Positions 20,784-48,974 of a DNA stretch of 64,000 nucleotides are shown one piece after another. The stretch lies in the NCBI GenBank assembly GCA_001662655.1, contig KV460208.1, one strand, 5' to 3'. How positions within the stretch are numbered: position 1 is the stretch's first letter; every line of letters begins with the position of its first letter. The stretch is from Pseudogymnoascus verrucosus (taxonomy: Eukaryota). The notes under the pieces are model-generated. The model searched no databases and was not told the DNA's origin. It worked only from the letters and a program-made list of their open reading frames with translations. The position numbers were made by a program, and so were the translations under genes.

Positions 20784-21825
20784 ATGGACAGTGCACACAG
20801 GGCATCTGCCATTGCGCAGATTGTCTTTTACGCACCGACTGTCCCGGCGACTTTGTACGTGGGCATCCGAGCCTGGAAGTATGGACCACGCCTGGCGTGG
20901 TATCCTGCCATGGCATTTGCATGTGGTAGGATGACTGGAATCCAGCTGAGGATTGGTGCGAGGTTGCTAACAACTATGATGCAGCCCGACTTACTGGCGG
21001 CGCTCTTGTTCTCGCGAGCCAACACGACCCCGAAAATACCCACCTACTTACCGCTACTATCGTCCTGCTCAACATCGGTCTTGTCCCGCTTATTATGCCA
21101 TTTCACGCCTTGACTCGTATCGTGTAAGTCAAAACATCTTGCTCTCTATCATACAAGTATCGTTTCTAAAACCCAGATGTTTCCACAGAGTACAAGCAAG
21201 CTTCCCAGGCGATCGGAGAAAGAACATGTTCCTTAGAGTTACTAGATTCCTGCTTTTTGCCTCTGTTTTACTCCTATCTGTTTCTGGGGGCTTATATGGC
21301 AACCCGGATCGCTCTAAGGTGCAGTCAACACTATCCAGGGTTGCATATTTCGAATTTGCCTTTGTTCTCGTAGCACTATTTGGCATGGCTGCTTGGCTAT
21401 ACTTTGTGGCCCGAGACAAGATTCAGGACGGTCAAGTCATTGTATGTATAACCCACCATTCCACGTCAGTATCCATAACCCTAGTGCCGCAAAATATTGA
21501 CCTTCAACCTCAGTATATCAAGTGGCTGCTTATTGCTTCTCCAATTCTCTGCATCCGTACCGTATTCGGGATTATCAGTGTGTTTGAGGCCACGGGCAAA
21601 CACTTCCTTACTTCGATATGGAGTCCGATGTTTGGTAACGCGGTTCTCTTCTCGCTCATGGCCCTTGTGCCCGAATTCATCGTACTTTGTATTTTTGTCT
21701 ACCTCGGACATTATCGTTACAGCACGGCTGACCAGTATGGGTTGGTTCCGCGGAAGGGGTTGTTCGAGAGGAGCGGCAAGAAGGATGAGGGAGAGCAAAC
21801 GAGCGATTCAGTCAAGATGACATGA
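20784..21825 (+). CDS. RTA1-like multi-pass integral membrane protein
   Basis: Spliced ORFs 20784.. and 21139..21825 encode about 7 hydrophobic segments ending ...PILCIRTVFG...LMALVPEFIV, typical of RTA1-like fungal membrane proteins. Confidence 0.7.
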
Positions 21826-22079: not shown

Positions 22080-22484
22080 TTATTCCTTTTTCTTATGCGC
22101 GATCACTCCATCAACCCTCTTCCACGCTCTAATCCCCTCCACAGCGCAACTAATCTCCCACATCCACCAAACCCTCGACCACCTTCTCACCCCATGTCTC
22201 CGCATCCGCAACTGGTCAAACAGCACCACCTCTCCCGCATGAGCAAAGGCAAGTAAAGGCACAAGAGTGCGAGCCATCCAAAGCGCCTGTTCGGCGCCGC
22301 CGGGAAAGTACTGCGTAAGCAGGTTCCATATGTGGTCTCCCGGTGTAATCCACGGCGATGCTACTCCCGTACCGAAGAGAGCTAGCATGCAGCCGATGAC
22401 GAACCAGTCCAGGGGGGACGGTGTTGCGTATTCCGTGATAGTTATGGCGCTGGTATTGACATTGTTGCGGCGGTAGCTAGTCAT
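22080..22484 (-). CDS. small integral membrane protein (134 aa), resembles the C-terminal membrane part of fungal DUF2470 proteins
   Basis: Single ORF with hydrophobic helices and the motif AHAGE..F...RMRRHGV..WS.VWW.W..SCAVEG..AW.R. Confidence 0.65.
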   Translation of the reverse strand: MTSYRRNNVNTSAITITEYATPSPLDWFVIGCMLALFGTGVASPWITPGDHIWNLLTQYFPGGAEQALWMARTLVPLLAFAHAGEVVLFDQLRMRRHGVRRWSRVWWMWEISCAVEGIRAWKRVDGVIAHKKKE

Positions 22485-23000: not shown

Positions 23001-24429
23001 CTATCTACGGGCCATAGACAGGCTGGGTTGCCGTCCAATGAGCAGCTGAAATGCAATAACGACGCCCTTAGCGGTCTCGACGGGATTCACCACATCAATG
23101 AATGCCCTGACTCCGAGAAACCCTCCCTGATACGTCCTGGGATAAGTTTCTCCAGGCTCGCGCTCGCATGCTTCGCCAGCCGGCCCATACTTGTAAGGGG
23201 CCACGGGGTACGCCCAGATGACGAGGAGAGAGATGGGAACCATCTCCAGGCAGCTGAGAAGAGCCGGAATGCCAATGTTTAAGTCGGCGTAGGTGAGCTT
23301 ATCGGTGGGATTCAGCACGGGGGTACTTTCGAGGATCCAGAAGATAATCTGCACATAATTATGTTAGCAATGGTGTTCTTGGTGGTGATAGTTGCTCTTG
23401 TTCTCTCGAGGTAGTTGGACTCACCCTTTGAGTGAAACCGAGGCCAACAACAAGCTTAGCGGAAAGAAGCTTGAAAATAAGCCTCTGCTGCGGCATATGA
23501 GGCTTCATGGTCAGTGCGACGAATACCACCGATACGAAGGCAATGGTCGGCGAGATACTGTCGATAATGGCGAGCTATAGTAGAAAGTGTTAACACCAAG
23601 CAACAGTCTGGTAAAAGGCGGCAATAAAGAGCGTGCTCACCCATAGTTTGGCGTAGCGCGGCATGATCTTGTACTGGCAAAAGACGCCGACTGCTTCGGT
23701 CACGACGGTTGCGATTGCGCATAGCACCGAAATGAGGACGTATTGAAAGACGCAAATCCAGCGTTGCTATAGTGTGATGGTTAGTAAATATCATGCATTG
23801 CCAAAGAGGCGGGGAGCATATAAAATCCGAGGAAAGAACTTACTCGGAACCATTTCGCGCCGTCCATCCCCTGTTTTCGAGCCCTCTTATCCTTGAGCTC
23901 AATAGTAGAAAAGAAGAGATCCCTCCCATGGTCGTGGGGCGACACATATTCGCAGAGAAGGAGGAAGTAGGCGGCTAGGCAGCTGGCCGTGAAGACGTCA
24001 AGCCAAGGGAGGAGGTAGACGGCAGCGTTGGGCAAGCAGATGCAGAGGAAGCAGATGATGGAGTAGGAGGGGACGAGAAGAGCGACTCTCATGATCCTAG
24101 ATAAGGCAAAGTTTGTCAGTAAAAAAATTGAGAGCGACAAAATAGGGCAACATATGAACGCTAGTAGTGGGCGTACTTTAGTTGTTCGCGGGGCACGCTG
24201 AGATGTGTCGCGTGGTTAAGCAAGTGCAGGAAAATAGCGATGACAGCAAACGCAGCGGATGCGCCGCCCAGTATCATGTCAAATGTGTAGAAGGTCATGG
24301 ACCCGAAACTTGGCGAGGTAGCATCTGCACGGGGGTTAAAAAATTGTTATTTCATAGATTCCCCTTCAGCTTTCAGCTTTGCTTACCTGCGGAAAGGTCG
24401 TGTACTGGGCACGACGCCGAATTACCCAT
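23001..24429 (-). CDS. organic solute transporter Ost-alpha / TMEM184 (DUF300) family protein
   Basis: Multi-exon model from ATG 24429: MGNSASCPV...HATHLSVPREQLKIMRVALLVPSYSII...FLLLCEYV...WICVFQY...LSCLEMVPISLLVIWAYPVAPY...YQGGFLG.RAF.DVVNP. Confidence 0.85.
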
Positions 24430-26025: not shown

Positions 26026-27673
26026 CTATCTTCTCCATAACGCAACCTTGACACCGCCAAAGTGACTGAACGTCAGGGCTAGATTTTCCCGAAAAACGCC
26101 CCCTCGCGGCTCTATCTGTTTAAAGCTCTGCACAAGACGAGTAACAACATATCCGGCTTCCATCAACGCGCTTTGTTGTCCTAAACATATGCGTGGACCG
26201 CCGTTAAAAGGAAGATACGCCCAGCCCGGCCGCAGCGGCTTCTCCGAGTCCAGCCAACGGCCAGGATGGAAGTCTTCCGCATTGGATCCGTAAACCTCGG
26301 GCAAGCGGTGCATCGTCCATACACCGTAGCTCAATGCTGTGCCTTTGGCGATGAACACCGGGGATTTTCCGTCCGGCCCGCCGCCGCGCGGGATGGTGGT
26401 ATGGCGGCTTGCGAAGCGCATGTTTAGAGGAACCGGAGGATGTAGGCGGAGGGCTGTTGACCAGGTTAGCACTCTTTCAATTTGAATCTTCGTCGCGCGG
26501 ACAGCAAATACACCAATGTATAGAGAATATACTCACTTTCGTCTAAAACGGCCCTGAGATATCGCATTCTCTTCAGAGTATCGTAATTTGGGAGCTCACC
26601 CCCCAAGTCATCCACCTCGGCCACCAGCTTACGCCAGACTTCCGGGGATCGGGCCAGAAAGTACATGATACTACTTAACAATCCAGCAGTTGTATCTCGA
26701 GCGGCCAGTAGGACATTCAATAGCTCATTTCGTAGCTGGATGGGATCACTGCACACCGCAGAGAGCTCAGACAGGAGGTTGTATCGTTTGGCCTTCACGT
26801 CACCACTACCAAGGGCAGCCCCTCCTTTCTTAGTACTGAGAAATTCAGCAATATAGTTATCAACAACGGAGTGAACAATGTCGCAGGAAGACTCAAACTT
26901 GGCATCTCGCATGAGGAAGGCTAGCTTTCCAAGCCGCAGCCGATCATTCGAGCGGCTCTCAGCATAGTCCCAGGCCTCGGAAAAATACTCCATGCTTGGA
27001 TCTGTCTGACAGTTAATGGAGCGCCCCAGCAGGAACTCTGTAGCGTTATCTATGGTGAAATTGAAAAACAAATGCTGCATGTCCACGGTGCCGCCATCCT
27101 CGGGTAGTTTCTTGATGAGATTCTGGACGTGCGTTTCGATGCTGTCCAGGTCGGCTACTTGAGCCCTGGTGAAACTTGGCCGAATAAGAGCCTGTGGTCA
27201 ATTTTAGCCTCTGGTTCAGCATCAGATTCCAATAGACAGACTCTGGAATGCTCCCAATGAACGCCATCAGTGGTAAAAATACCCCTCCCCATCAGCCTTC
27301 CCATGGCGCTCATTCGGGGACCAACAACAAAATCGTCGAAGTTTGTGGCGAGAATGGATTTTACGTTCTCTGGCTCGCATGTTGATACAAATGTTTGGCC
27401 CATGAGATTTATCGTCATTGTGCGGGCCACGGTCAAGCTGCGCCGGACATTGGTCTCAAGTGCCTTTCTCTCAACGGCATTTTGCTTGATAGTCTTGAAG
27501 AGGTCCAGACCCAGAATCGGATCGAGCTGGGGAAGCCGTGTCGGCGGTTTACAACCGTGCAGTCTTTTAAACGTCGATGTCTCTACTGAATATATGACCC
27601 GACGTACAATGGCATAGCCGATCAGGCCGATCAGCGCTATGAAAATGCTCTGGCGGAGGTTCAATGAGTCCAT
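26026..27673 (-). CDS. cytochrome P450, CYP52-clan (alkane/fatty-acid omega-hydroxylase-like)
   Basis: Three exons: TCEPENVKSILATNFDDF, GIFTTDG.HWEHSR, I-helix LLNVLLAARDTTA, LRLHPPVP.N.R, TTIPRGGGPDGKSP and heme motif YLPFNGGPRICLG. Confidence 0.92.
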
Positions 27674-28370
27674 TGTGATGGTGGGCATAAACACATTGAT
27701 TATCACAATGCGTAGAAAGTAGCCGTTATTATGCGTGGCATGTAAAACTAACTATTGGTGGAGTCGATGACAATTGCCAACTGGGGGGAATTTGTGAAGT
27801 GCGTTTCTACATTGATTCTAACACTCAATTTAGTATATATTCCAGTCAGCATCCCCCCACAACATGACCCGACGATAGCCCACCTATGGGTAATATTCGG
27901 CATTCGCATCCTTTCATGATTATTGTCATTGGAAGAATTCTAATGACTTATTTCAAACGGCTAATATTTTGATCCATACTTTCGACTCTTTCGGTATGTC
28001 ATAAGACTGCCTAAAGTAGCAGTGGTATCCCATTCAGGCTGACACATGAATAGATAGATGAACTAGGCCGAACGAGCGCTGACTTAGTCCGAATTAGTCC
28101 AGTCATATCAGTGTCTGATTCTTTTTTCGTCTAACCCAAATATACCATCAACCTGATTAAGAGGTGTTATCATATTTGTTAGCTAGGTGAATTAGTATGA
28201 AGCTCCACAGATAGACTTGCCAGTTATATGTCCGCCATCAACTCAGAGACACCGCAAAAAAATAATCGCCATTACTTTGATATACATATTTTGTTTTACT
28301 GAACCATCAACTGTGTTCTTTACCTCGTACATGCTATATTTTACTGCATAGACCAAATAATTCGTTCACA

Positions 28371-29489
28371 ATGGCCAGCGCAGCAATCCTACAATACCCT
28401 GTGACGCTGCCAACAACACAGACAGCCGTCATAGCGAGCGAGACGGGAGATTTCGAGATCTCTTCTAATGTCCCTCTGCCATCCCTCCAACCCGATGAGA
28501 TTCTTATCAAGACAGCCGCAGTAGGCTTGAACCCCGTCGATACCAAACTTGTCGGAGACTTTGTTACACCAGGATGCATTTTTGGTTTCGACTGTGCAGG
28601 AATTGTGGTTGCCATTGGATCAAGCGATGTGCACAAGGCTCGTGGTATATCTGTCGGTGACCGCGTCTGTGGCTCTGCCAGTGGCATGAACAAACTGAAA
28701 CCTCTGGGAGGTGCATTTGCCGAGCATGTCGTGTTACCAGGAAGTTTGACTCTGAAAATCCCCGACTCTCTACCTATGGAGGATGCAGCGGCTCTCGGTA
28801 CCGCTGTTGCCTCTGCCGCCATGGCCCTCTTTTGGTCCTTGGGGATAGACCCAGCTCTGTTTGGCACGGGGGGAGATAATAAAACCGGCGATGAGGCACC
28901 AAAAGCTCTCGTTTACGGAGGTAGCACCTGTACGGGCACCATGGTCATCCAGCTCCTGCGACTATGTGGCTTCCACGTCCTCACCACCTGCTCTCCACGC
29001 AACTTCAAACTCGCCAAGTCCTTCGGTGCCCATGAAACCTTCGACTACAAGTCATCGGGATGTGCTGCCGACATCCGTGCGCATTGCGATAACGCTCTTG
29101 AATACGCCGTCGACTGCGTTGCCGAGGACTCAACCATGAAGTTCTGCTACGCAGCTATCGGGCGTGCTGGCGGAAAATACACGGCCCTCAACCCTTTTAA
29201 CGACACACTTGCCACACGCAAAGTCATTCAACCCGACTGGATTCTTGCCACGCGTATCACGGGCGACGCCTCGTCCTGGCCTGCTCCGTACGCGTGCGAG
29301 CCCGAGCCGCGTCTGCTTGAAATGGCCGGCCCGGTCTTTGAGAAAATACAACAGCTCCTGCTTGAGGGCAAGATCCGTGCTCATCCTGTTCGCGTGGAAG
29401 AGGGCGGATGGCACGGCTTACTTAATGGAGTCCAGATTATCCGCAAGGGGGAGGTTAGCGGGCAGAAATTGGTGTACAAGCTTTCCTAG
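28371..29489 (+). CDS. trans-acting enoyl reductase (LovC/TenC/CcsC-like)
   Basis: 372-aa intronless ORF: AVGLNPVDTK, GFDCAG.VV.IG, GGAFAEHV, LVYGGSTCTG, TTCSPRNF.L.KSFGA, GEVSGQKLVY. Confidence 0.95.
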   Translation: MASAAILQYPVTLPTTQTAVIASETGDFEISSNVPLPSLQPDEILIKTAAVGLNPVDTKLVGDFVTPGCIFGFDCAGIVVAIGSSDVHKARGISVGDRVCGSASGMNKLKPLGGAFAEHVVLPGSLTLKIPDSLPMEDAAALGTAVASAAMALFWSLGIDPALFGTGGDNKTGDEAPKALVYGGSTCTGTMVIQLLRLCGFHVLTTCSPRNFKLAKSFGAHETFDYKSSGCAADIRAHCDNALEYAVDCVAEDSTMKFCYAAIGRAGGKYTALNPFNDTLATRKVIQPDWILATRITGDASSWPAPYACEPEPRLLEMAGPVFEKIQQLLLEGKIRAHPVRVEEGGWHGLLNGVQIIRKGEVSGQKLVYKLS

Positions 29490-30011: not shown

Positions 30012-30094
30012 GGCCGGGTGGTGTAGTTGGTTATCACGTTTCGTTAACATTTAATGTGCCGAAAAGGTCCTGGGATCGAACCCCAGCCTGGTCA
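30012..30094 (+). tRNA. tRNA-Val(AAC) with 9-nt intron
   Basis: Acceptor GGCCGGG/CCTGGTC plus A; A-box TGGTGTAGTTGG; anticodon arm TTTCG-TT AAC A[tttaatgtg, 30050-30058]C-CGAAA; T-arm CTGGG-ATCGAAC-CCCAG; oligo-T Pol III terminator ~30099-30103. Confidence 0.9.
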
Positions 30095-30518: not shown

Positions 30519-32306
30519 ATGGCTATTCTCAGTGCCAAATTGATATTGGTTGCATCTGGGGCACTTTCTTATGTCTTGGTTCAACATGCCCCCGAATCTC
30601 TGCCTCCGCCTCTGAGAACCAGCTATATCGGAGTGTTTGCTTCGCTATGTCTCGTTCAATTTGTAGCATTGTTCACATATGCCATGTTTCTGAAACCATT
30701 CTGGCTCAGTCCTTTAACCAAGCTGCCACAGCCAAAGGTCCGTACGGAATCTAGTCTCGGACGTGTTTTTAGCGTTTTAACATGTTCCAGGGGGGAGGGC
30801 TTCTGAATGGCCATTTCAAGACAATCTATTCCTCTGGAGCCGGAGAAACTGAAAAGAAATGGTACGTTTTCCGCACGGTATTTGCCATGATGATGTGAAG
30901 AAAACGTCAAATAGCAGCTGAGAAATTGCGGATGCAGGTTCAACGAAATACCAAACGACGGCCTCATTTATTATCGCGGATTGTTAAATAATGCTAATGT
31001 CATTGTCACCTCACCTGAAACCCTCCAAGAGGTCTTGACGAGAACGTACGAATTTCCCAAGCCCGTGGGAATTATATACTTGGTTGGTCGAGTACTAGGT
31101 ATTGGCCTAGTGCTGTCCGAAGGCGACGTTCACAAGCAGCAACGAAGGACTTTCCTGCCAGCATTTGCTCCCAGACACGTTCGCGACATGTATCCCATAT
31201 TTTGGTCCAAGGCTTGCCAGGCAGTAACAAATCTAACTTACATCGGCAATGGAGAACAGCTGGAATTTGAAGTCGGTCATTGGGCCTCCCGAACTGCAAT
31301 CGATATCATCACCATGGCCATGATGGGCAAAGATTTCGGTGCCATTGCCGACGCTAATGCCCCTCTCTTTAAGGTTTATCGGGCTTTGCTTGAGCCCACT
31401 CGAGCCTTTCTCGTTCTGGCGATGATGAAGGCCTTCTTCCCAGCGCCCCTCGTCGACCGTCTTCCTGTGAAGTGGAACAGGTGGATGGACGAGGCAGTGG
31501 AGACCATCCGTGGTACTTGCCGCGGCATGCTGCGCGAGAAGAAGCAAAAATTAGCAGAAAAGTCCCTTCTTGAGAAGGACTTTCTCAGCATAGCTGTTCA
31601 GTACGAGGATATCGCCCAAGTATCCGAAGATGGTGTTATCGACCAGTTGACCAACGCCCTCGGCGCCGGACACGAGACCATCTCCGTCGCCATTACATGG
31701 GTTGTTTACATGCTCTGTGTTCATCCTGAATGGCAAACACGATTACGAGAGGAGGTTCGAACAAACTTCCCTAGTCCTACTGAACTAGCGGAGACCGGAC
31801 GGGAGGCCACGGCTTCGGATGTCGACAACATGCCCTTCCTGCAAGCTTTCATCAACGAAACTCTCCGTCGCTTCCCCCCGGTCCCTGTGACTGCGCGTTG
31901 GGCTACCAATGATTCCATTATCGCCGGCCAATTAATTCCCAGTGGTACACGCATAGCTATCCCTATCAAAGCTGTGAATTGGGACAAACGTCTCTGGGGC
32001 CCTGATGCTCACGAGTTCAAACCCGAGCGGTGGCTGGGCCCGGATGGCAGGCTATCAGGGACCGGCGGTGCAAACTCCAAATACTCTAACTTAACTTTTT
32101 TGCAGGGAACGCGTGCTTGCGTCGCTCAAGTTCTTGTCAAGGCGGAAATGGCCTGCGTTGTCGGCTCTTGGGTTGGACGCTTTGACCTTAGTCTCGTGGA
32201 TGAGACCCTTCTAGACGAAGCAAACATGAAAATTTCGGGGGGCAGTCTGTCTGGAAAACCTCTTCACGGTTTGCATGTCAAAGCACGGGTGTTGGAAGGG
32301 TGGTAG
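30519..32306 (+). CDS. cytochrome P450, CYP617/FUM15-like
   Basis: N-terminal anchor exon 30519.., two introns, then NEIPNDGLIYYRG, GLVLSEGDVHKQQRR, I-helix GAGHET, ETLRRFPPVP, FKPERW and heme motif TFLQGTRACVA. Confidence 0.9.
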
Positions 32307-33425: not shown

Positions 33426-34841
33426 ATGGGCGTCAATCTTCCCCAAATCACTCTCGACACCACCCTTACTACTCTATATACTCTCGATGGCGGAAACCCT
33501 CAAGACCTGTCCATTGTCACCGTGATCCCGCCTCCAACCCAGGTGTCCTCGTCTCTTCCATCCAACACCAAGTTCGTGTACCAGCATCCGAATCATGAAA
33601 AGTTTGACGACGATATTTACGCCCGCATTTTACTTGGGGCGGTCGCCCAGCACCTCAGCTTTGTTGCGGGTTCTATTCCCGTCAACCTATTCGATATCGA
33701 CAAGACCTATATCCAATCCTGGTTGAGTTTGATTTGGACTTCGATTCCGGGACACCAAGTGGACGCGCAGCGAGTTTACGATGTTCTCGTTCCAACACAA
33801 AGACCGAGACTAGACTTCATCACCAGTCCAGACGACTTTCTGCCCATTGCGCCGAGTGGGAAACTCGCTACTGTGGTTGCAAGCAATCCTCTAGATTGCC
33901 TGAGCAAACTTCCGGGAATTATTACTCCTGAAATCCATTACAAGCTTCTTTCCAAGCATGACCTCGTCCACTCTGGACTGCCGATGCCTCCCAGCGACGT
34001 ATTGACGACGTCCCTCACACCTGCAGAGGTAGAAGACGATTCTCTCGTTAGACGCGAAAGCAGTCGCTTTATCAATGCCGTGAAAAGTCGCGCATTGCCC
34101 TTCGTGCTCAAGTTCCCACAGTCTCTCGCCGGATACGGTGTATTTGTCGTGCGCACAGAAACAGACCGAGACGCCTGCATCGCAATTCTTCAGACTGAAA
34201 TTGCCCTAATGATCCGCTCACTCAATGCTTCTAACGCACATCTTAATCCTGTGAGCCTCATATTCCAGGATATGCTTCCTGGCGGGGCTGTCGCGCACAA
34301 CATCTTTGTCACCAAGACAGGTCGGCCTGTATTCATAGGAACCTGCGAGCAAGTCATTGACAAACAAGGTAACTGGTCCGGCGCCATGGCCGACTACAAA
34401 CGCCAAGAGGAGCTGGGCAAGTTGTACGCACCAACGACAGCAAAGATGGCTGAGTACGTCTTCTCAAAGGGATACTACGGTCCTATGGGGGCTGATATCA
34501 TGATATCTGAAGGCCAGCAGTATGTGATTGACCTCAATGTTCGCCTTACCGGGTCGTACTCCCTGAGTCTACTCAAGGGACACTTTAGCGAGTGCCGTGG
34601 ACTGCATTTTGCCACTCTGATGTCGCCGGTCCCGATGATGGGAGACAGGAATGCATTCGAGAGGAAGTTTGTGAGCCAGCTGGAGAGCGGCCGGCTTGTC
34701 ATTGTTGGCTGGTGCGAAGGGCGTTTTGGCCCTGGACGTCTTATCAAATATAGCATGGGCTGTATCGTGGTCGGTGGGGAGGATAAAGCTACGATGATGG
34801 ACCTGGTCGAGCGTGTGAACGAGGTCAAGATTAAGCGCTAA
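33426..34841 (+). CDS. ATP-grasp fold protein, putative carboxylate-amine ligase (471 aa)
   Basis: Intronless ORF, probable start MGVNLPQ. ATP-grasp-type motifs LPFVLKFPQSLAGYGVFVV, LIFQDMLPG, GYYGPMGADIM and YVIDLNVRLTGS. Confidence 0.8.
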   Translation: MGVNLPQITLDTTLTTLYTLDGGNPQDLSIVTVIPPPTQVSSSLPSNTKFVYQHPNHEKFDDDIYARILLGAVAQHLSFVAGSIPVNLFDIDKTYIQSWLSLIWTSIPGHQVDAQRVYDVLVPTQRPRLDFITSPDDFLPIAPSGKLATVVASNPLDCLSKLPGIITPEIHYKLLSKHDLVHSGLPMPPSDVLTTSLTPAEVEDDSLVRRESSRFINAVKSRALPFVLKFPQSLAGYGVFVVRTETDRDACIAILQTEIALMIRSLNASNAHLNPVSLIFQDMLPGGAVAHNIFVTKTGRPVFIGTCEQVIDKQGNWSGAMADYKRQEELGKLYAPTTAKMAEYVFSKGYYGPMGADIMISEGQQYVIDLNVRLTGSYSLSLLKGHFSECRGLHFATLMSPVPMMGDRNAFERKFVSQLESGRLVIVGWCEGRFGPGRLIKYSMGCIVVGGEDKATMMDLVERVNEVKIKR

Positions 34842-35158: not shown

Positions 35159-35758
35159 CTATTCTACCCAATCGTAGACCATTTTTACAGTTACAGCCTC
35201 AGGAGTAACATGTCCAAATTCCGTGCCTTTCTGCACCACTACTCGGCGCACATGGTAGCGTTTGCCGTCAATAACCTCAAAGCCCCATGCCTGCCAGCTT
35301 GTCCAACCAGCACCCAGACTTTGGACTTCAATGAGCTCTTCTGTTCCATCCTCCCAGTTGTTGAGCAGTAACTCGTTCTCAATTTCGTGAACGGCGCAAA
35401 TACGATTCTTAGTTTTCACATCACCAAATACAACGTGAGACGTGGCTGCTTCCACCCAGTCAAGAGCTCGCTCTTCTGTCATGGTGCGGCCAATTGTGCT
35501 TTGCTTCGTAATTATTTTTTCGACTCCTGTATCCGAATCTCGGATCTGTTCGAGCGATAGAGAGATAGGAGCTCGAGATAGTGCAGTGCGGAGTAGGATG
35601 TTGACACCCTGGACGGCCATGGCTGCCGCTATGTCATCAGATAATCCATGGTTCTAACCACCGATTAGAAACTTGGACTTTATCTTTGATGGCAGTAAAC
35701 TTGCAAATTTCCATTGACCGTTCAAGTCGTGGACACTTTTTTCCTGTGGCGCTGCCAT
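35159..35758 (-). CDS. PydY-like putative pericyclase (small beta-barrel-type protein, ~182 aa)
   Basis: Exon 1 MAAPQEKSVHDLNGQWKF, GC-AG intron 35704-35654, exon 2 NHGLSDD..AMAVQGV..LLR.A...EERALDW...HVVFG...WTSWQAWGFEVIDGKRYHVRRVVV. This pattern matches my recollection of the PydY-like family. Confidence 0.7.
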
Positions 35759-36688
35759 GTCGCTGTTGCAACTCTGTCCTTGTGATGCTCAAGGTTTGAG
35801 TTTCCAGAAAAAATACACGATTAGTTTTATTGCAGAATAAGATTCGGTTCATCTGTTTCAGTTTCACGTAACTGTCATACTTTCAAACCTGGTTCCTGGC
35901 ATGGTACCTGATGTGGTTCCTGATATGATTGCTGACATGACAAGGAGTCTCTCCAAATATGGATGCTGACACAGCTGTGCCCCGATTTGGGCATCATCCA
36001 CTAACCTCCGTTATATCAGCAATTCACATACGCCCAATCGCGTAATTCTCTAAGAGGACAAAACTAGGCCTCCAAGTAGGTCCTAAGACTTAGTGTTCTA
36101 GTCTGCTTTAGATGGATCAGCAATGTAACATAGTCTATGTAATATCACCCACGTGTTAGGTGCATGAACGTCGCGGCTTTCTATATGAAAATAGGCATCA
36201 TAAATATATATATTTTCGTCGCACACTATATACTAGGTTTAGGATCAAGCACTCGTTACATCACCGGGTACACTCTTCAATTTCAACATTACTGGTTACA
36301 TGATTCTATCTGTTGTTGAAGCCTCCATCGCCTTCAAAACAACACCAGTGTTTCTCGCATCTTTCAACTAGAAAGCATACACCCAACCTACTCGCAAGCT
36401 CTTGTCGATACTCTGTCACCTCTCCACCAATATAAAATCGGAATTTATTACCGGTAGTTGTTGTCACGAACGAATTGTCACTCTGGTCTACCTTGCGTCC
36501 ATTAGCTTCCATAAGCCTTCAAACAGATCACTATCTCGGCGGTTTTCACGAACGTGTTATCACTTTATATACCTTGCTTCCATTAGCCTCCAAACACCCC
36601 GCTATATCTGGGCGGTTTCTAAACACTCGAGGTTATCAAATAACATCAAATTTACTTTACGGAAAGTTTACACACCAGATTCGCCACA

Positions 36689-39600
36689 ATGAGCCATTCC
36701 AACGAACCTATTGCCATCATTGGCAGCGGCTGTCGTTTTCCGGGAGACTCTTCCTCGCCTTCTAAGCTTTGGGACCTCCTAAAAGATCCACGAGATGTAT
36801 CCAGAAAAATCGACAGGTTCGAAGCCGAGGCTTTCTACCATGAAAATGGTCATCATCATGGAACGAGCAATGTTCTTCACTCGTATCTCCTGAACGAGGA
36901 TACTCGCGCTTTTGATGCACAGTTCTTTAGCATTCCTGGGGGAGAAGCCAGTACCATTGATCCGCAGCAGCGCTTCTTGATGGAGGTTATCTACGAAGGA
37001 CTCGAATCTGCTGGCCAGAAGATTGAGGATCTCTCTGGTTCCTCGACTGGTGTCTACGTTGGTGTCATGTGCAACGACTTCGCACAGGTCACGTATGCGG
37101 ATATTCAGAATGTCCCCAAGTACGCCGCCACCGGAACGGCCCTAAGCATTCTCTCAAACAGAGTTTCCTACTTCTTCAACTGGACCGGCCCCTCCATGAC
37201 TATCGATACTGCTTGCTCCTCCAGTCTTATTGCTGTTCACCAGGCAGTTCAGCTTCTCCGCAGCGGCCAATCCCGAGTTGCCGTCGCTGCTGGAACCAAC
37301 CTTATCTTCACGCCTAGTGAGTAAACGAGCTTTCTGTCAATGCAATGGGAAAAGAGCTAACAACGTTATTCAGCCAATTACATCGCTGAGAGTAACGTAA
37401 ATATGTTGTCCCCAACGGGTCGCAGCCGCATGTGGGACAGCAATGCAGACGGTTACGCACGTGGCGAAGGCGTAGGCTGTGTAATCCTGAAGCTGTTGAA
37501 GGATGCCATCGCTGATGGCGATGTCATTGAGTCCGTCATCCGTGAGACGGGAACTAACCAGGATGGACGAACTACAGGTAAGGTTTGAGATATCATGAAA
37601 CCTTAACGCAACTTCTAACTTGAAAAGGAATCACCATGCCCAGCAGCAAATCTCAGGCGGCCCTCATCCGCGAGACATACAATAGAGCTGGTCTGGACCC
37701 GCTAAGTGAGACTGATCGTTGCCAATACTTCGAAGCCCACGGCACCGGAACCAAAGCTGGTGATCCACAAGAAGCAAGTGCAATCCATCAAGCTTTCTAC
37801 CCGGCTGGTGGTCCAAGCAAAGAGGATGATATTCTCTATGTCGGATCTATTAAGACTGTCATCGGACACACAGAAGGCACAGCTGGAATTGCTGGTCTTC
37901 TGAAAGCGTCCCTCTCCGTCCAACATGGCATCATTCCAGCAAACATGCTTTTCACAGACCTAAATCCTGATGTTGAACCATACTATGGATTTCTCCAAAT
38001 ACCGACGTCGGCAAGGCCATGGCCTGCCCTACCCCCCGGCGTGCCTCGAAGGGCCAGTGTAAACAGTCAGTTATTCCCTCCCATAAAGATTTTAATGACG
38101 CCATGTAATTTGATGCTAACATGTCCAAATGTATTTAGGCTTCGGATTTGGTGGTGCCAATGCTCACGCTATTGTTGAGAACTACGTTCCTGCCGAGGAG
38201 CAATCTATCGCACGCAACTCTTCGGCCTCAGTACCCTTTGTTTTCTCGGCAAACTCCGAGAAAGCCTTGACTTCTCAAATCAAGGCGATTCGCAGCTTTG
38301 TAAACCGAGTAGACGACAGCGTCAATGCTCGAGATGTAGCTTGGACGTTGTCTCGCAAGTCGTGCTTCTCTCACCGAGCGTCGTTCGCGGCAGCCACCCT
38401 GCCTGCCCTAGCCGAGAAGTTATCCAAGGCTTTAGAGTCCAAGGAAGCCGACGACAAGGACGTGGGATTACGATTCAACCCCAAGAAGCAAAAGATTCTT
38501 GGTATTTTTACCGGTCAGGGAGCTCAGTGGCCTACTATGGGATATGCACTGATCCAGAGTTCGCCGGCTGCGTTAGCAACCATCCAGGCCTTGGAAGAAT
38601 CCCTACAAAGTCTTCCAAAGAAAGACAGACCATCATGGTCAATTCAGGAGGAGCTTTCTAAGGCACCAGAGGTTTCCAGTGTCATGCAAGCTGAATTTTC
38701 TCAGCCTCTCTGCACCGCTGTCCAAATCGTATTGGTCGACTTGCTTCGGGCTAGCGGCATCGAATTCAGCGCTGTCGTGGGACATTCCAGTGGTGAGATC
38801 GGCGCGGCATATGCAAGCGGCTTCCTAACAGCGTCCGATGCTATCAGGGTTGCGTATTATCGCGGTGTCCTAGGGTCTCTAGCTAATGCCGATGGTGCTA
38901 TGCTTGCCGCCGGTACTTCCATGGAAGATGCTACAGAGCTCTGCCGTCTCCCAGTCTTCCGTGACCGCATAACTGTGGCTGCGAGCAACTCTCCTGCCAG
39001 TGTGACGCTTTCCGGTGACAGGAAGGCCATCGAGAGAGCCCAGTTAATTCTGGAGGACGAGAGCAAGTTCGCCAGAATGCTGAAAGTAGACAAAGCCTAC
39101 CACTCTCATCACATGGCGCCTTGTGCTGAGCCCTACATGCAAGCAATGTCCCAGGCCAAGGTGCAAATCCAGGAACCATCTTTCACCTGTCGGTGGTTCT
39201 CATCAGTTCTTGGAGGCCCAGAGGTCACTACTGAGATGGCTGACCAGCTATCTGGTGCTTACTGGCGAGATAATCTCATTAATCCTGTTCTCTTCTCCCA
39301 GGCTCTTGAAGCTGCCCTGGAGGCTATTGGTGAGCCAGCGGTGGTGGTGGAAGTTGGTCCTCATCCCGCCTTAAAGGGCCCAGCTAGCCTGGTCATCGGA
39401 GACAAGTTCAAATCGGATGTGTCGTACACTGGTGTTCTTGCAAGAAACATCAACGATGTTGAAGCCTTGTCCGAGGGCATTGGTGCCATCTGGAAGAACA
39501 TTGATTCGTCTATACTGAGCTTTGCCAACCTAGATGCCCTCTTCTCTGATGTCCAGGACAAGCCCATGTTTCTCAAACAAGTGCCCAACTACGCCTGGGA

Positions 39601-42600
39601 CCATGATCGTACTTATTGGAATGAGTCTCGAGCGACCAAGTCGATGTACCAGCGTACTGAGCGTCACCACGAACTGCTTGGTGTTAGGCTTGACGGCGGT
39701 GAACATGACTTCCGCTGGAGGAACTTCATCAAGCCTTCCGAAATGCCTTGGCTACGCGGACATCAAGTCCAGGGCCAGATGGTGTTCCCGGGAGCTGGGT
39801 TTGCCAGTATGGCCTTCGAAGCTTGTAAAGCCCTGGCGCCACTTGAGCAGATATCTATGATTGAGCTCATTGATCTTCGCGTTAGTCGCGCCATGGCCCT
39901 TACTGACGAGAGCCCTGGCGTTGAGTCTCTGGTGACTCTGTCCAATGTTCAAAGAGATGGGAAGAACGGCGTCATTTTCTGTGACTATGAGTGCTCCATT
40001 TGCCCAACCCCTGACAGTGTACCTGTCCGTGCTTCAACTGGTAGCATCCGTCTCGAACTCGGAACCGTTTCTTTGGAATCTCTTCCCTCGCGGAATGCTT
40101 TGGGCTTGGACATGAACAATGTCGACATGGATCACTTCTATAACTCGCTGGCAGCCCTGGGCTACAATTACAGCGACATGTTCACGGGCATCAGTTCTCT
40201 GAAGCGAACCACCGACACGGCTTCCGGGATTATCCATATTGACGGGGCGGAGGGTTATGATCCTGCCTTCATTTTCCACCCCGCGCCTCTAGATGTCGCT
40301 TTTCAATCTATCTTCGGAGCACTAGGTGCACCCGGCGATGGTCGTCTCTGGACTGTTCTGGTACCAACCTTGATATCTAGAATCAGAGTCAACCCACATG
40401 CTTGCCGAAACGCAGGATTAGGCATGGACATGCCTTTCGATTCCGTTATTTCGGTTACTCCATCCAATGGAGTTTCTGGTGACGTCGATATCTGCGATCA
40501 GGATGGTAATACTCTGGTGCAGGTTGAACGTCTACACGTTTCGCCCCTTACCGCTACCACCGAGCAAGATGATAGGCACATGTTCTCTTCTACGGAATGG
40601 ACTCCCTTTTACCCGGATGCCACCAAGGACTTCTCTAAGTGGGTTCTAAGTGAGGAGGAACACGGCCACATGGTATTTATTGAGCGGGCATGCTTTCTTT
40701 ACATGAAGCGAGTCCATGATGTCCTTACTCAGGAAGAACGTGAGAACTGCGACTGGCATCGCAAGAAGTACCTTGCCTGGGTGGCTGAAATTGTGGGAGA
40801 AGTTGCCGAGGGCAGGCATCCAACTGTCAGCAAGGAGTGCATGAATGACACCTGGGAAGAGATGAAAGACGAGCTTGAGGACTTTTGCTCATTATATCCC
40901 GACTTCCGCCTGCTAATTGTTGTCGGTGATAATCTCGTTGGCTGGATGCGTGGCGAGGTAGACTTCCTTGAGATGTACCGTGAAACAGGCATGCTTGAGC
41001 ACATCTACAAGAACACCTACGGTTTCCCCGAGTATAATGCTTACCTAGGTAAGCTGGTTCGCCAACTGTCCCAAAGGTTCCGTCAAATGGACATCCTTGA
41101 GATCGGAGCTGGTACTGGATCGGCGACCGAGGCAATTATGAGCCGCATTGGCGATAGCTATGCTTCGTACTCCTATACTGACATCTCGGCGGGCTTCTTC
41201 CTCGAAGCTAAGGATATTTTTAACAAGCAGGGAGACAAGTTTGCCTACACCACTTTTGACGTGGAGAAGGATCCCATTGCCCAAGGTTACGCCGAGCACA
41301 GCTATGACCTGGTTGTGGCATCCAACGTCCTACACGCGACCAAGTCTTTAGAGACCACGTTGACCAATGCCAGGAAGCTTCTCAAGCCCGGCGGGTACCT
41401 TGTCATTCTTGAGATCACTGACACGGATCCTCTACGACCTACTTTCTTCTTTGGCACGCTTTCCGGTTGGTGGGTTGGCGAGACGGATGGACGTCCTCAT
41501 CATCCTCTCCTCACACAGGCGAAATGGGACGCTGTCCTCCGAAAGTCTGGCTTCTCTGGACTTGACACGGCAACTCCTCCTTCGGGCGAGTTCATGGTGC
41601 CTCAAAGCATCATGCTCAGCCAAGCTGTGGACACACAAATGAATCTCATTCGTCAGCCGTTCTCCCCCAAGAGCAACGTGCAGCTGGATGACTTACTTGT
41701 CCTTGGTGGCCAGTCCATGTCTAGCTTCCAACTTCAGGAGGATATCATAGCCTTGCTGCAGCCTATTGCAAAGAATATCACTTTTGTAGAAAACCTCGAT
41801 CTTTTGGAAGAATCCCACTTCACTTCGAAGCAGATCACTCTCAGTCTTCTGGAACTTGACGAGCCTGTCTTCAACCCCTTCACGCCTGCCAAATGGGCCG
41901 GTTTACAGCTGTTTAGCGAAAAGGCCCAGAATGTCCTTTGGATCACTCAGGGAGGTAGTGGCGAACATCCATACGCAAACATGATGATCGGCGTTGCACG
42001 TTGCTTGACATGCGAGAAGCCCGATCTACGATTCCAAACCATTGATTTCGACGCTATAGACAGTCTTAATCCCCAAATGATTGCCGAGGCAGTGTTGCGC
42101 CTACATATTTCCGATACTTGGGGCTCATTTGTCGAGGCATATGATACAGCCTGGCTTCTGGAACGTGAAATCCGTGTCATTGGTGGAGAGATGACAGTCC
42201 CCCGTTATATTCCAAACAAGGTTTTGGATGGTCGATATAATTCATCGCGCCGAACAGTCCAGAAGGATACTAACCTGAACGGCTCTGTTATTGCTATCTC
42301 CGCCGGAGAGGCGTCCTATGAGCTCCAGCAGGTTGTGACACCAGAATGGGAAGCTTTTACTAACTCGGGTCTTGCAGAAATAAAGGTAGAGCGATCCTCA
42401 CTAGCGACAGTCAGCTTGGGATCCTTTGGATCGCTTTTCTTGACAATCGGAAAGCTGAGCGGTTCGGGAGAGAAGGTTCTTGCGTTCTCAGACTTAAATG
42501 CATCAGTCGTCAGTGTTCCCAAAGCCTGGGCTATTGCCTATAACGGAACCGGCGAAGAAGACTTGGGTGTTCTAAAGGCGGCCTTTGACGTCTCCTTGGC

Positions 42601-45600
42601 TCAAACTCTCATTACTGCGATAACGCCGTCAAGCGCACTTCTTGTCTATGAGCCTACGGCTGAGCTTGCAGAAGCACTCAAAGAGATCGCCGCGGATCAA
42701 GGCAAAAACGTCACTTGCACCACCTCGAGGACAGAAATTGCAAACAAGGATATCCTATACATCCATCCGTCAACCCATGCAAGAGCCCTTGCTTCAATAT
42801 TCCCCAAAAGGTTGACTGCATTTGTGGACCTCTCTGGCCGAGGACATACAGGAAGCCTTGCTCCCCGTATTGAGAAACAACTACCTATCCAGTGTCGGCG
42901 ATTGGACGTTGCCGATTTGATCGGCAGACAAGCTTTCACACGGCCTTCTGGTAACGAAGATACTGTGGTCAATGTCCTAAAGCGTACTTTATCATACGCT
43001 ATTGCCCATCCTAGCAGCTCTGCTGAAGAGTTTCCAGTAGGTGATATGACCGGGCAGACACTCGCGAACTTCGATGCCCGCGTGAAGGTGCTGAACTGGA
43101 CTACCAGCGAGACACTTCCCGTCAATCTGTCTCCCCCTGAGGACGTCATCCAGTTCCGTTCCGACAAGACCTACTGGCTGGTTGGCCTTGCTGGACAGCT
43201 GGGTCTTTCCATTTGTCAATGGATGGTCAAGCGTGGAGCTCGTCATGTTGCTTTGTCTTCTAGAACCCCCAAGATCAGCGAGAAGTGGCTCAAGTTTGTT
43301 CAGGCTGACGGCGCAGAGGTGCGCGCAGTGCCTTGGTATGTAAAATTTTCACCCCTTTCCACATAATTTTAGTTTGTAACTAACGAACTGGTCACTCTTA
43401 TCAGCGATGTCACTGATCGTCGATCGGTCATGCGGGCTCACAAGGCCATTTGTGACACAATGCCACCCATCGCAGGTGTTGCCAATGGTGCTATGATTTT
43501 AAACGATGGAATCATTGCACAGCAGCCTCATGATATGTTCAACCAGACTCTCAAGCCCAAGGTTGACGGCACGCGCTTCTTGAACGACATCTTCAGCAAG
43601 CCTACGCTTGACTTCTTCGTGGTCTTTTCTTCCCTTGCCTACGTGACCGGAAACATTGGTCAGTCCAGCTATGCTGCTGCCAATGCATTCATGGCCAGCG
43701 TCGTCGAGGGTCGCCGTAAACGCGGCCTTGCTGGAAGTGTCATGAACCTTGCCGGGATCTTTGGTATTGGGTACATCACCCGCACAGATCGTGGCATCAT
43801 TGAGCGTCTCGGAAAGATGGGGTACTCCAACGTGTCTGAGTGGGATTTCCTACAGTTCTTTGCGGAGTCCGTCAACGCCGGCCACCCTAATGTAGGATCT
43901 GGTCATGATCACGAAATCTCATCGAGTCTCAGACCGTATGACCCTAGCCGAGATGAAAATCCTCCGGCCTGGCTTAATATCCCCCGCTTCTGCTACTATA
44001 AGCGTTCTACGGCTCTCTCTTCCGCCCAGGAGGATGGCAAGAATGAATCTGTGCGCTCTCAGCTCAAGGAGCAGAAGACCAAAGATGACGTTTACAAGGT
44101 GCTACTTGCTGGTCTCACAGCCGTCTTGTACAAGAATCTCGGTCTGCGACCAGAAGACAACAATATTGCCCCTCATACTCGACTTATTGAGCTCGGGATC
44201 GATTCTCTTGTTGCTGTGGACATGAGATTCTGGTTTACCAAGGAACTGGATCTTGACATGCCCGTGCTAAAGCTGCTGGGAGGCGCATCAGTAGAGGAGA
44301 TGGTCCAGGACACGATGGAGCGACTGTCACCAGAACTTACCCCTAACTGGGTTAAAGAGCCGGCAGAAGCGGAGGCCTCTACGGGTGAAGAAGAGGTGCC
44401 GACTATTGTCATCCCAGACGACGACAGTACGTCCAACGGCTCCCCGTTGAGTGTCAGCGAGAATGAGACCCCCGATAGTGAGGCCACCACGCCGCCAGCT
44501 AGTCGCAGTCTCTCGGAAGCCGGTTATCCCAAAGAGGGACTATCGACACCGCCACTGGATCTAGAGCTAGAGCTTGCGTTCGAACGGAAGGTGAAGATGT
44601 CGTACCCTTCTTTGCAGTTCTGGTTTCTGATCCAACATCTAGGACAAGACGCCCCCCACGCTTTCAACGTCAGCTTCCGAGTCGCTCTGAAGGGCAGAAT
44701 GGACATCAGCCGCATGGAGGAGGCAGTCAAGTCGCTTGGAGAGAGACACGACGCACTTCGCACTGCTTTCTTTGACGACTCCGAGAATGATTACGAGCCT
44801 ACCCAAGGCGTCTTGTCACTCGACAACTCCCCATTACGCCTAGAGGTTCAGAAGATTGCTAGTTTACAGGAGGCCATTGACTTCAATGAGAAACTTGACC
44901 ACTATGTGTTCGATATCCAGCGTGGTCGTACCATCCGCATGGCAATGCTTTCGGAAAGTGATACTGCCCATTACCTTATCCTTGGATTCCATCACATTGC
45001 CATGGATGGTTTCAGCTTCGACGTCTTTTTGCGCGAGCTTGGTGCGCTATATGAAGGCAAGGCGCTGCCTCCCGTGACAATCCAGTGGAACGATTTGATG
45101 GAAGAACAGCGACTTGGCGTCGGGAATGGATTATTCAAAGCGGAAACAGACTACTGGCGGTCTACTCTCGCCACGATTCCTGACCCTATCCCGATGCTCC
45201 CAATGGCCAGATCTCAAACCCGAGTGTCTGTCACAAAATTTGCCTTCGAGGAGTGCCCTATAACAGTCTTAGATGAGAAGACTGTCAGGGGTATTCGCGA
45301 GCGCTGCCGTGAGATGAAGGTGACGCGCTATCACTTTTTCCTGTCTATTCTGCGCATCATGCTATTTGAACTTACAGACGTTGAGGAACTATGCATTGGA
45401 ACTGTCGACGCCAATCGAGGTGACAGTCGCGCGTCGAGTACCATTGGCCTTATGGTTAACGTCTTGCCCATGAAGTTCCAGCGCAGCACCAATAAGAGCT
45501 TCACTCAATTAACACAGGAGGGCCGTGACCAGGCCTATGCCGCTCTTGCGAACTCCAGGCTCCCTTTCAAGGCCATGCTGGATCAGCTTGCAGTTCCTCG

Positions 45601-48600: not shown

Positions 48601-48974
48601 TCCTCGACCTCACCTTCAAGCTTAAAGCTGTCCCGCAGCCTCAGGGCTGGCGCGGCTCTTTCGACCTGCTGCGAACATCGGAGTTGTCGCATCAGCTAGT
48701 GGACAGCTTTATCCAGTCGTCGGCCGACCCGACCAACGATAGTGAGAGGGTTCAATATGTTCACTATCCTTCGACCGTCCGCTTACAAATGGAGAATGTG
48801 GTGGAAGGGTTACAAGCTGCCAAGCAGGTGGCCAATGGTGATGATGTGGAAGGTTTCGAGACCCTCCCCCCACATGTTTGGGTCGGCAAGGCAAAGAAGG
48901 TCGGCCTAGATTGGCATTTCGCTGGCCAGGACTTTTCGGCATTTGGGGCCGAGGGTGTTTCATTGAGAAGATAG
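36689..48974 (+). CDS. hybrid iterative PKS-NRPS, KS-AT-DH-CMeT-(inactive ER)-KR-ACP-C-A-T-R, roughly 3,980 aa
   Basis: Six exons. [130 protein letters not shown]...YIASK. Confidence 0.97.

What the first reader, a model, noticed from the sequence alone, without database searches (positions are those of the whole stretch)
33426..34841. ATP-grasp ligase two genes from the PKS-NRPS: possible post-assembly amide formation
Seen: 471-aa ORF with ATP-grasp motifs (VLKxxQSxAGxG, GPMGAD, IDLNVR) and two copies of the cluster motif TGCTGACA upstream (32810, 32852). Known: ATP-grasp enzymes activate a carboxylate as an acyl-phosphate for attack by an amine; fungal secondary-metabolite examples (FsqD, AnkG) are in non-PKS-NRPS pathways. 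Inference: it could add an amino acid or amine to a carboxyl made by the CYP52-like P450, close a macrolactam, or build a non-standard substrate for the A domain.
Basis: partly seen in the sequence, partly recalled or inferred. Interest (0 to 1): 0.8.

Follow-up and report, generated by a model that had tools for sequence, protein, structure and literature searches.

The report
Amide ligase in fungal tetramate cluster
A fungal gene cluster related to those that make sugar-capped, long-chain tetramic acids shows no sugar-transferring gene and instead carries an intact, transcribed amide-bond-forming enzyme, which probably caps the oxidised tail of the product with an amino acid or amine; the product itself is unknown.

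Summary
Observation confirmed. The intronless 471-aa ORF is an ATP-grasp ligase. Its closest solved relative is bacterial LdmS (Z 30.2), and all five catalytic and metal residues are invariant in 42 of 42 relatives, but the LdmS aspartate pocket is changed. By sequence and fold it does not group with Cp1B, the relative that a preprint names for AnkG. The neighbouring PKS-NRPS is 51% identical to BuaA and was placed in the burnettramic acid clade by Minami 2020, without the glycosyltransferase note its sugar-capping relatives carry. The ligase is syntenic in 6 of 6 other Pseudogymnoascus genomes. It shares a TGCTGAY promoter motif with the core genes and is covered by a gene-sized contig in a run with spliced cluster transcripts. 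Relatives lie beside a PKS and/or a CYP52-like P450 in 8 of 22 metagenome loci, all in one clade with this protein; 9 of 22 are unlinked. Best reading (0.5, inferred): it amidates the P450-made omega-carboxyl of an alanine-type acyl-tetramate. Macrolactam closure and A-domain supply are unlikely. No product or activity is shown. I found no paper on this pairing, and the scan had not noted it on other DNA.

The parts
33426..34841 (+). LdmS-like ATP-grasp ligase, 471 aa, intronless
   Evidence: a gene-sized contig covers 33246-35018 in run X3; single match in the genome
32631..32907 (.). four TGCTGAY sites upstream of the ligase (32637 -, 32810 +, 32852 +, 32901 +)
35930..36122 (.). four TGCTGAY sites in the divergent promoter of the 182-aa gene and the PKS-NRPS
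35159..35758 (-). 182-aa protein of an unnamed ascomycete family, with a GC-AG intron at 35654-35704; 'lipocalin-like' is a recalled label, not tested
   Evidence: splice joint in X3; model; no Pfam hit; Atlas clusters without a family
36689..48974 (+). PKS-NRPS hybrid KS-AT-DH-MT-KR-ACP-C-A-T-R, burnettramic acid clade Ib-A
   Evidence: domains; its exons match named record OBU00869; 51% to BuaA; clade listing
30519..32306 (+). second cytochrome P450; 35% to a P450 in related locus L005
   Evidence: two splice joints
28371..29489 (+). trans-acting enoyl reductase
   Evidence: 70% to an Epicoccum nigrum ER and 58% to an A. alliaceus ER on a contig of the same length as the BuaA-cluster contig
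26026..27688 (-). CYP52-like P450, 3 exons, intact heme-cysteine motif
   Evidence: model without internal stops, 45-47% to Diaporthe P450s, three of them named 'N-alkane-inducible' or 52A13 by their sources; both introns spliced in X3
23001..24299 (-). organic solute transporter (OST-alpha-like), multi-exon
   Evidence: Pfam Solute_trans_a; splice joints in X1 and X3
22080..22481 (-). small predicted membrane protein with no family; membership of the cluster uncertain
20784..21825 (+). DUF7702 membrane protein; the same family lies in ligase locus L005
   Evidence: splice joints
18362..19258 (+). ankyrin-repeat protein (5' end uncertain; no bZIP basic region found)
15164..16130 (-). bZIP-basic-region plus ankyrin-repeat protein, the candidate cluster regulator
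   Evidence: ankyrin Pfam hits; basic-region pattern at 16082; the regulator role is inferred

Best explanation
The gene is a tailoring ligase of a burnettramic acid/epicoccamide-type cluster. Shown: an ATP-grasp fold of the LdmS type with an intact ATP/Mg/carboxylate site, membership of the cluster, and transcription. Inferred, step by step: (1) the PKS-NRPS and the trans-ER build a long reduced chain, join it to a small amino acid (probably alanine) and release a 3-acyl tetramic acid; (2) the CYP52-like P450 oxidises the chain end, here as far as the carboxylic acid; (3) the ligase phosphorylates that omega-carboxylate with ATP (Arg373, Asp357, Asp369, Asn371, Lys229) and an amino acid or amine attacks the acyl-phosphate, giving an amide; (4) the two-headed amphiphile is exported. 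The ligase would take the place that the mannosyltransferase (BuaB/EpiB) holds in the known clusters.
For: Fold and catalytic residues; K229, D357, D369, N371 and R373 are invariant in 42 of 42 rows and align with LdmS Lys173, Asp288, Asp301, Asn303 and Arg305. LdmS aspartate-pocket positions Tyr252, Asn255 and Asn307 read W317, A320 and T375 here, which is less polar. Clade Ib-A lists OBU00869 with no glycosyltransferase note, while 7 of 24 rows have one; none was found between 15164 and 48974. The R-domain motifs equal those of BuaA, which releases a tetramate, so the head would carry no free carboxyl. ER, ligase and PKS-NRPS share a contig in 6 of 6 other named Pseudogymnoascus genomes, with locus tags two apart in three of them. 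A CYP52-like gene follows the ligase in 6 of 22 metagenome loci and has the adjacent locus tag in two Diaporthe species. L005 holds ligase, CYP52-like P450, ER, DUF7702 and a second P450. All linked loci placed in the tree fall in one 47-row clade with this protein (100/97), and all six unlinked ones outside. Shared promoter motif and spliced cluster contigs.
Against: No product, substrate or activity is known. Oxidation to the acid is assumed: in burnettramic acid and epicoccamide the chain end stops at the alcohol. The closest PKS-NRPS relatives (Lasiosphaeris, Cercophora, Coniothyrium, Ophiobolus, Apiospora marii; 56-61%) have no named ligase among the 46 hits, so the ligase is not a fixed part of this lineage. 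The nearest non-Pseudogymnoascus ligase (Hirsutella, 69%) is not on the contig of its best ER match, and Monosporascus ligases and hybrids have distant accession numbers. In this window the ligase is next to the second P450, not the CYP52-like one. 9 of 22 loci have neither PKS nor CYP52, and the linked loci come from few samples. The pocket residues shared with CYP52-adjacent ligases are largely shared with unlinked ones too, so they are ancestral and weak evidence. The equivalent of LdmS Arg47, which binds the acceptor carboxylate, could not be fixed (R67 or H76), so the acceptor type is open.
Confidence: 0.5

Rival explanations
1. Head extension: the ligase adds an amino acid to the free alpha-carboxyl of a hydrolytically released N-acyl-alanine, giving a lipo-dipeptide.
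For: LdmS uses an amino-acid alpha-carboxylate as donor. In L002, L006 and L009 a ligase paralogue sits beside an FSH1 hydrolase and the PKS. The window's ligase groups with those paralogues in a 35-row clade (96/90).
Against: No FSH1-type hydrolase was found in this cluster. The R domain is complete and BuaA-like. The window's ligase lacks the K/R318, S320, D377, S396 and Y397 residues found in the three full-length and one partial FSH1-side ligases.
Confidence: 0.15
2. Stand-alone dipeptide ligase: like LdmS, it joins two free amino acids into a separate small product that is only co-regulated with the cluster.
For: The closest characterised enzyme is a free dipeptide ligase. The family also occurs without PKS genes, beside MFS transporters (L013, L014, L018, L020).
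Against: The cluster-linked members form their own clade and recur beside CYP52-like P450s in distant fungi. No amino-acid-modifying gene or peptide transporter was found in the cluster.
Confidence: 0.17
3. Passenger: a recently inserted gene with no role in the pathway.
For: No ligase was found for the species holding the closest PKS-NRPS relatives. The Hirsutella orthologue is apparently unlinked.
Against: Intact at 471 aa and 90-99% identical in six genomes, comparable with the PKS-NRPS at 92-98%. Its upstream region holds 4 of the 11 motif copies, and it is transcribed with the cluster.
Confidence: 0.08
4. Macrocyclase: the ligase activates the omega-carboxyl and an amine or hydroxyl within the same molecule closes a macrolactam or macrolactone.
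For: Acyl-phosphate chemistry allows it (established knowledge), and the acceptor-binding arginine could not be confirmed.
Against: The A-domain code DIGMFGAILK has no acidic residue beyond Asp235 and shares 5 of 10 positions with alanine-loading EpiA and 6 of 10 with EasA5, so no side-chain amine is expected. The tetramate ring nitrogen is a poor nucleophile (established knowledge).
Confidence: 0.06
5. Substrate supply: the ligase makes a non-standard amino acid or dipeptide that the A domain loads.
For: The code differs from every row of the reference table, and fungal codes predict poorly (established knowledge).
Against: The code is closest to alanine-loading domains. It does not explain the recurrent CYP52 adjacency.
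Confidence: 0.04

Closest known systems
LdmS (SAOUHSC_02373; PDB 7r8p/7r8q), L-aspartate-L-methionine ligase of Staphylococcus aureus (PMC9486568)
   Same: Best match by sequence (E 3.4e-06; profile E 2.5e-09) and by fold (Z 30.2, next family 21.9). The nucleotide, metal and carboxylate-binding residues are kept.
   Different: About 18% identity; 47 bits against a cut-off of 475; aspartate pocket changed; fungal; lies in a PKS-NRPS cluster rather than the hmrA/ldmS operon.
Burnettramic acid (bua) and epicoccamide (epi) clusters, PKS-NRPS clade Ib-A (PMC7421883, PMC9685919)
   Same: PKS-NRPS 51% to BuaA with the same R-domain motifs; trans-ER; chain-oxidising P450; a second P450 as in bua. An ankyrin gene buaF is recalled, not seen in a call.
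   Different: No glycosyltransferase, proline hydroxylase or N-methyltransferase was found. It has an ATP-grasp ligase, a 182-aa protein, DUF7702 and an OST-alpha-like transporter. The A code is nearer EpiA (Ala) than BuaA (proline type).
Fungal ATP-grasp enzymes Cp1B (E-64) and AnkG (NK13650) (bioRxiv 10.1101/2024.10.09.617497)
   Same: Same proposed chemistry: a dicarboxylic or non-amino acid joined to an L-amino acid through an acyl-phosphate, in fungal secondary metabolism.
   Different: Cp1B resembles homoglutathione synthetase, has no Pfam domain and works in an NRPS-independent pathway. No such entry is among the PDB sequence hits or the listed structural rows.
FsqD of the fumisoquin pathway (recalled; nothing seen in a call)
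   Same: A fungal ATP-grasp enzyme in a secondary-metabolite cluster (recalled).
   Different: Not a PKS-NRPS pathway (recalled).
Wortmanamide (twm) PKS-C cluster (passages in PMC9505148 and PMC11153888)
   Same: Long reduced chain amidated with an amino acid; thioesterase, P450 and ER beside a PKS-NRPS-type gene.
   Different: The amide is made by the C domain of TwmB; no ATP-grasp gene is named in the passages seen.

Membership tests
ATP-grasp superfamily | ATP-grasp fold | tested here: met
   Pfam PF02655 above its cut-off; the model matches ATP-grasp structures, with Z 30.2 to 7r8q
ATP-grasp superfamily | Nucleotide-binding Lys, Mg-binding acidic and Asn residues, carboxylate-binding Arg | tested here: met
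   K229, D357, D369, N371 and R373 are invariant in 42 of 42 rows and align with LdmS residues
ATP-grasp superfamily | ATP to ADP + Pi via an acyl-phosphate | not testable with these tools
   needs an enzyme assay
LdmS equivalog (NF047900) | Score above the curated cut-off | tested here: not met
   47.2 bits against 475
LdmS equivalog (NF047900) | Aspartate pocket Gln244/Tyr252/Asn255/Asn307/Ser309 | tested here: not met
   reads Q309/W317/A320/T375/S377: 2 of 5 kept
LdmS equivalog (NF047900) | Arg47 binding the acceptor carboxylate | tested here: inconclusive
   R67 (40 of 42 near relatives, 22 of 68 in the wider family) or position 76 (R in 31 of 68, H here); no residue-level superposition was available
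Cp1B/AnkG-type fungal ATP-grasp | Homoglutathione-synthetase-like sequence and fold, no Pfam domain | tested here: inconclusive
   this protein has a Pfam hit and its best structural match is LdmS; no Cp1B-type entry is listed, but absence from a ranked list does not exclude it
Burnettramic acid clade Ib-A cluster | PKS-NRPS in clade Ib-A with a trans-ER and a P450 | tested here: met
   OBU00869 is listed under Ib-A and matches the window's exons; ER and two P450s are present
Burnettramic acid/epicoccamide pathway proper | Glycosyltransferase that mannosylates the chain end | tested here: not met
   none among the ORFs between 15164 and 48974; no note for this accession; a copy elsewhere in the genome was not searched
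Burnettramic acid/epicoccamide pathway proper | Dieckmann release of a tetramic acid by the R domain | tested here: inconclusive
   the motifs equal those of BuaA, but both keep the Ser/Tyr/Lys residues also used by reducing R domains, so sequence cannot decide

The most novel reading that the evidence does not exclude
An LdmS-like ATP-grasp subfamily has been recruited across ascomycetes as a tailoring ligase of PKS-NRPS lipids. It replaces sugar capping by amino-acid capping of a P450-made omega-acid and defines an undescribed family of amide-capped two-headed tetramates. A sister cluster type (PKS, FSH1 hydrolase, SDR, ABC transporter, CYP52-like P450, ER, DUF7702, second P450) carries two diverged ligases that may add two different amino acids without extra NRPS modules. 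This would be the first characterised member of this fungal enzyme family and, as far as my searches reach, the first ATP-grasp tailoring step on a fungal PKS-NRPS product.
Probability: 0.45. Interest if true: 0.72.

Novelty: new variant of a known kind. Interest (0 to 1): 0.55.

Why it matters
[quoted passage not shown] This ligase belongs to a different, uncharacterised family (176 representatives at E up to 1e-30) whose only name in the hits is 'solid-state culture specific protein'. The cluster gives that family a compact, testable pathway: about five core genes, transcribed in a near-identical strain. If the reading holds, it adds a new capping route to a clade known for sugar-capped tetramates (burnettramic acids, epicoccamides), gives a marker for mining related clusters, and may supply a ligase that amidates long-chain acids, which is of biocatalytic use.

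Tried and rejected
1. Eucalactam B (Diaporthe) as the product of the two-ligase clusters. It is a polyketide-Thr-Gly-Gly macrolactone with no oxidised chain end, so it leaves the P450s unexplained; it is more simply a PKS plus multi-module NRPS product (inference). Dropped.

2. The R-domain tyrosine as a sign of reductive release. BuaA has the same motif, so it does not discriminate.

3. TGCTGACA as an exact 8-mer. Not significant window-wide or against an any-8-mer control; only the relaxed form holds. Upstream of related ligases it gave 0-2 copies in 900 bases (less where the locus is short) whether linked or not (16 genes), which is uninformative.

4. Pocket residues as proof of kinship with CYP52-adjacent ligases. 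Of 7 diagnostic columns, 4 were like those ligases, 2 like the FSH1-side ones and 1 like neither, and unlinked ligases share the state.

5. Prokaryote genomes: 56 stretches matched a pattern and none was a relative. The LdmS family was found in 0 of 14 control genomes.

6. The metagenome contigs could not be read beyond the loci held, so whether the PKS in L002, L006 and L009 has an NRPS module is open. L006 ends in a post-ACP linker.

7. No RNA holder is on record; the expression evidence rests on spliced contigs only.

8. Literature: 'ATP-grasp'+'tetramic acid' 0 papers; 'ATP-grasp'+'PKS-NRPS'+'fungal' 11 listings, none on such a cluster by title or abstract start; searches likewise. 'ATP-grasp' occurs 0 times in the main text and the six supplements held for Minami 2020. 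The library lacks most subscription journals, where such a paper would most likely appear.

9. Earlier notes of this scan: nothing by sequence or place; the word search gave only other systems.

10. No Cp1B-type entry appeared among the listed structural matches.

Full report
Observation. It passes Pfam ATP-grasp_3 (E 5.4e-09). Its only significant PDB sequence match is LdmS of Staphylococcus aureus (7r8p, E 3.4e-06), which is also the best hit of two family profiles. An AlphaFold2 model from 42 sequences (pLDDT 93.3) aligns to LdmS with Z 30.2 over 369 residues, well above the next family at Z 21.9. The genome gave one match.

Active site. From the printed alignment and the LdmS paper (PMC9486568; passages and section 7 read), K229, D357, D369, N371 and R373 correspond to Lys173, Asp288, Asp301, Asn303 and Arg305. 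All five are invariant in 42 of 42 rows, so the enzyme looks catalytically intact. The aspartate pocket differs: Tyr252, Asn255 and Asn307 read W317, A320 and T375. The score against the LdmS family is 47 bits against a cut-off of 475. It therefore probably works like LdmS but is not LdmS. The equivalent of Arg47, which binds the acceptor's carboxylate, could be R67 or position 76, so whether the acceptor is an alpha-amino acid is open.

The E-64 preprint (passages read) relates AnkG to Cp1B, which resembles homoglutathione synthetase, has no Pfam domain, and is called the first validated fungal natural-product ATP-grasp enzyme. This protein belongs to another family, with 176 representatives at E up to 1e-30, named only 'solid-state culture specific protein' in the hits. 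FsqD is recalled only and was not compared.

The cluster. From 15164 to 48974 lie a bZIP-ankyrin protein, an ankyrin protein, a DUF7702 protein, a small membrane protein, an OST-alpha-like transporter, a CYP52-like P450, a trans-ER, a second P450, the ligase, a 182-aa protein without a family, and a complete PKS-NRPS. The PKS-NRPS exons match the named record OBU00869 of Pseudogymnoascus verrucosus and are 51% identical to BuaA.

Placement among known clusters. Minami et al. 2020 (PMC7421883; passages, a supplement search and part 1 of 2 of supplementary file 3 read) list OBU00869 in clade Ib-A, the burnettramic acid clade. There 7 of 24 hybrids are noted with a glycosyltransferase and this one is not; 'ATP-grasp' does not occur in their text or the six supplements held. 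The epicoccamide paper (PMC9685919; passages, section 15 and the supplement read) describes the logic: tetramate release, P450 hydroxylation of the chain, mannosylation of the end. The original burnettramic acid paper was not seen. The window's A-domain code is DIGMFGAILK. The same extraction gave the published EpiA code for several related hybrids, though it differed from the published BuaA code at 2 of 10 positions. The window's code shares 5 of 10 positions with EpiA (Ala) and has no side-chain acidic residue. The R-domain motifs equal those of BuaA.

Membership of the cluster. ER, ligase and PKS-NRPS lie on one contig in 6 of 6 other named Pseudogymnoascus genomes that list the ligase, with locus tags two apart in three of them. 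The ligase is 90-99% identical there and the PKS-NRPS 92-98%. TGCTGAY occurs 11 times in the four core promoters (0.99 expected; 0 of 2000 shuffles), 4 of them before the ligase, and 0 times in eight other intergenic stretches. In a best-word control 9 of 600 shuffles score as high. The exact 8-mer alone is not significant. That the bZIP-ankyrin protein binds the motif is a guess.

Expression. No run is on record as RNA. In run X3, however, contigs skip the predicted introns of the CYP52-like, second P450, DUF7702, transporter and 182-aa genes, and one contig spans 33246-35018. Run X1, from another study, shows spliced joints in two cluster genes and a 245-base piece on the ligase. Contigs cannot give levels or show co-regulation.

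Relatives elsewhere. A metagenome scan gave 22 loci holding 23 ligase genes. All 22 were compared with the window's proteins, and 93 ORFs of 16 loci were scanned with Pfam. Eight loci have a PKS and/or a CYP52-like gene beside the ligase: PKS in L002, L006 and L009; CYP52-like in L003, L005, L008, L009, L015 and L016. Two more (L004, L011) show part of that layout, three are under 2 kb, and nine have neither. Several loci come from the same few samples or are near-duplicates. L009 shows the order PKS, FSH1 hydrolase, ligase A, SDR, ABC transporter, ligase B, CYP52-like P450, and L005 adds ER, DUF7702 and a second P450. The PKS of L002 and L006 is 42-44% identical to both this PKS-NRPS and BuaA, so this is a sister cluster type, not an orthologue. 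In two Diaporthe species ligase and P450 have adjacent locus tags. In Clohesyomyces and Lojkania, ligase and ER lie on contigs of identical length, and the Clohesyomyces Ib-A hybrid is 20 accession numbers from the ligase.

Tree. A tree of 56 rows (16 of the 23 locus genes; near-duplicates and some fragments left out) puts every linked locus and this protein in one clade of 47 rows (100/97). The six unlinked loci fall outside, some on long branches. Within the clade this protein is not clearly type A or type B.

Against. The closest PKS-NRPS relatives (56-61%) come from species with no named ligase among the 46 hits; that search scored only 8000 candidates. The 69% Hirsutella ligase is not on the contig of its best ER match. 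Monosporascus ligases and hybrids have distant accession numbers. The pocket likeness to CYP52-adjacent ligases is mostly ancestral. Known clade products stop at the terminal alcohol.

Mechanism. ATP-grasp chemistry needs a carboxylate. If the R domain releases a tetramate, as BuaA does, the head has none, and the likeliest source is oxidation of the chain end by the CYP52-like P450; CYP52 enzymes take alkyl ends through to acids (established knowledge). The best reading is therefore amide capping of an omega-acid in place of mannosylation (0.5). Rivals are a separate dipeptide (0.17), extension of a released N-acyl-alanine (0.15), a passenger (0.08), macrocycle closure (0.06) and A-domain supply (0.04). 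Fold, intact site, linkage and transcription are shown; every chemical step is inferred.

Novelty and verdict. The searches found no paper pairing an ATP-grasp ligase with a fungal PKS-NRPS or tetramic acid (listings seen; passages only for the papers named). Subscription journals are mostly missing from the library, and the preprint's supplements were closed, so a report may exist. Other papers seen in passages only were PMC10381184 (also section 13, part 1), PMC10143158, PMC9505148, PMC11153888, PMC9710679 and PMC12917493. This is a new variant of a known cluster kind with an uncharacterised enzyme family and a direct test. Interest 0.55.

Noticed in passing
window 51193-58469 (-), 60984-62447 (+), 63190-63726 (-): A second cluster abuts the first: a non-reducing PKS (SAT-KS-AT-PT-like-ACP-ACP) ending in a reductase domain, an AflR-type Zn2Cys6 regulator and an O-methyltransferase fragment. 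Its promoter has no TGCTGAY site.
   Followed up: no
L009:848-14467 and L005:1-13897: A sister cluster type with two diverged ATP-grasp paralogues (A beside FSH1 and the PKS, B beside the CYP52-like P450). Type A carries its own pocket residues K/R318, S320, D377, S396, Y397. Relatives occur in lichen fungi, Dothideomycetes and Xylariales.
   Followed up: partly
window 35159-35758 (-): A 182-aa gene with a GC-AG intron confirmed by a spliced contig. It has no Pfam family and two 33-36% paralogues elsewhere in the genome; function unknown.
   Followed up: partly
window 15164-16130 (-) and 18362-19258 (+): Two divergent ankyrin-repeat genes; only the first has a bZIP-type basic region. It recalls TOXE-type regulators (recalled).
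   Followed up: partly
window 49380-50465 (+): Protein-kinase-like ORF pieces between the two clusters, possibly a spliced or decayed gene.
   Followed up: no
window 29632-29670 and 30011-30114: Short repeated or multi-copy stretches between the ER and the second P450; several contigs pile up at about 30020-30110.
   Followed up: no
L020:5764-13501: An unlinked ligase relative lies between an AMP-binding enzyme, an MpaB-like oxygenase and an MFS transporter: a possible small cluster without a backbone enzyme.
   Followed up: no
window 420-1028 (+), 6025-8460 (-), 12016-13224 (+): An AMP-binding enzyme fragment, a GC-rich 811-aa ORF with a weak leucine-rich-repeat hit and an MFS transporter lie left of the cluster; probably outside it.
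   Followed up: no
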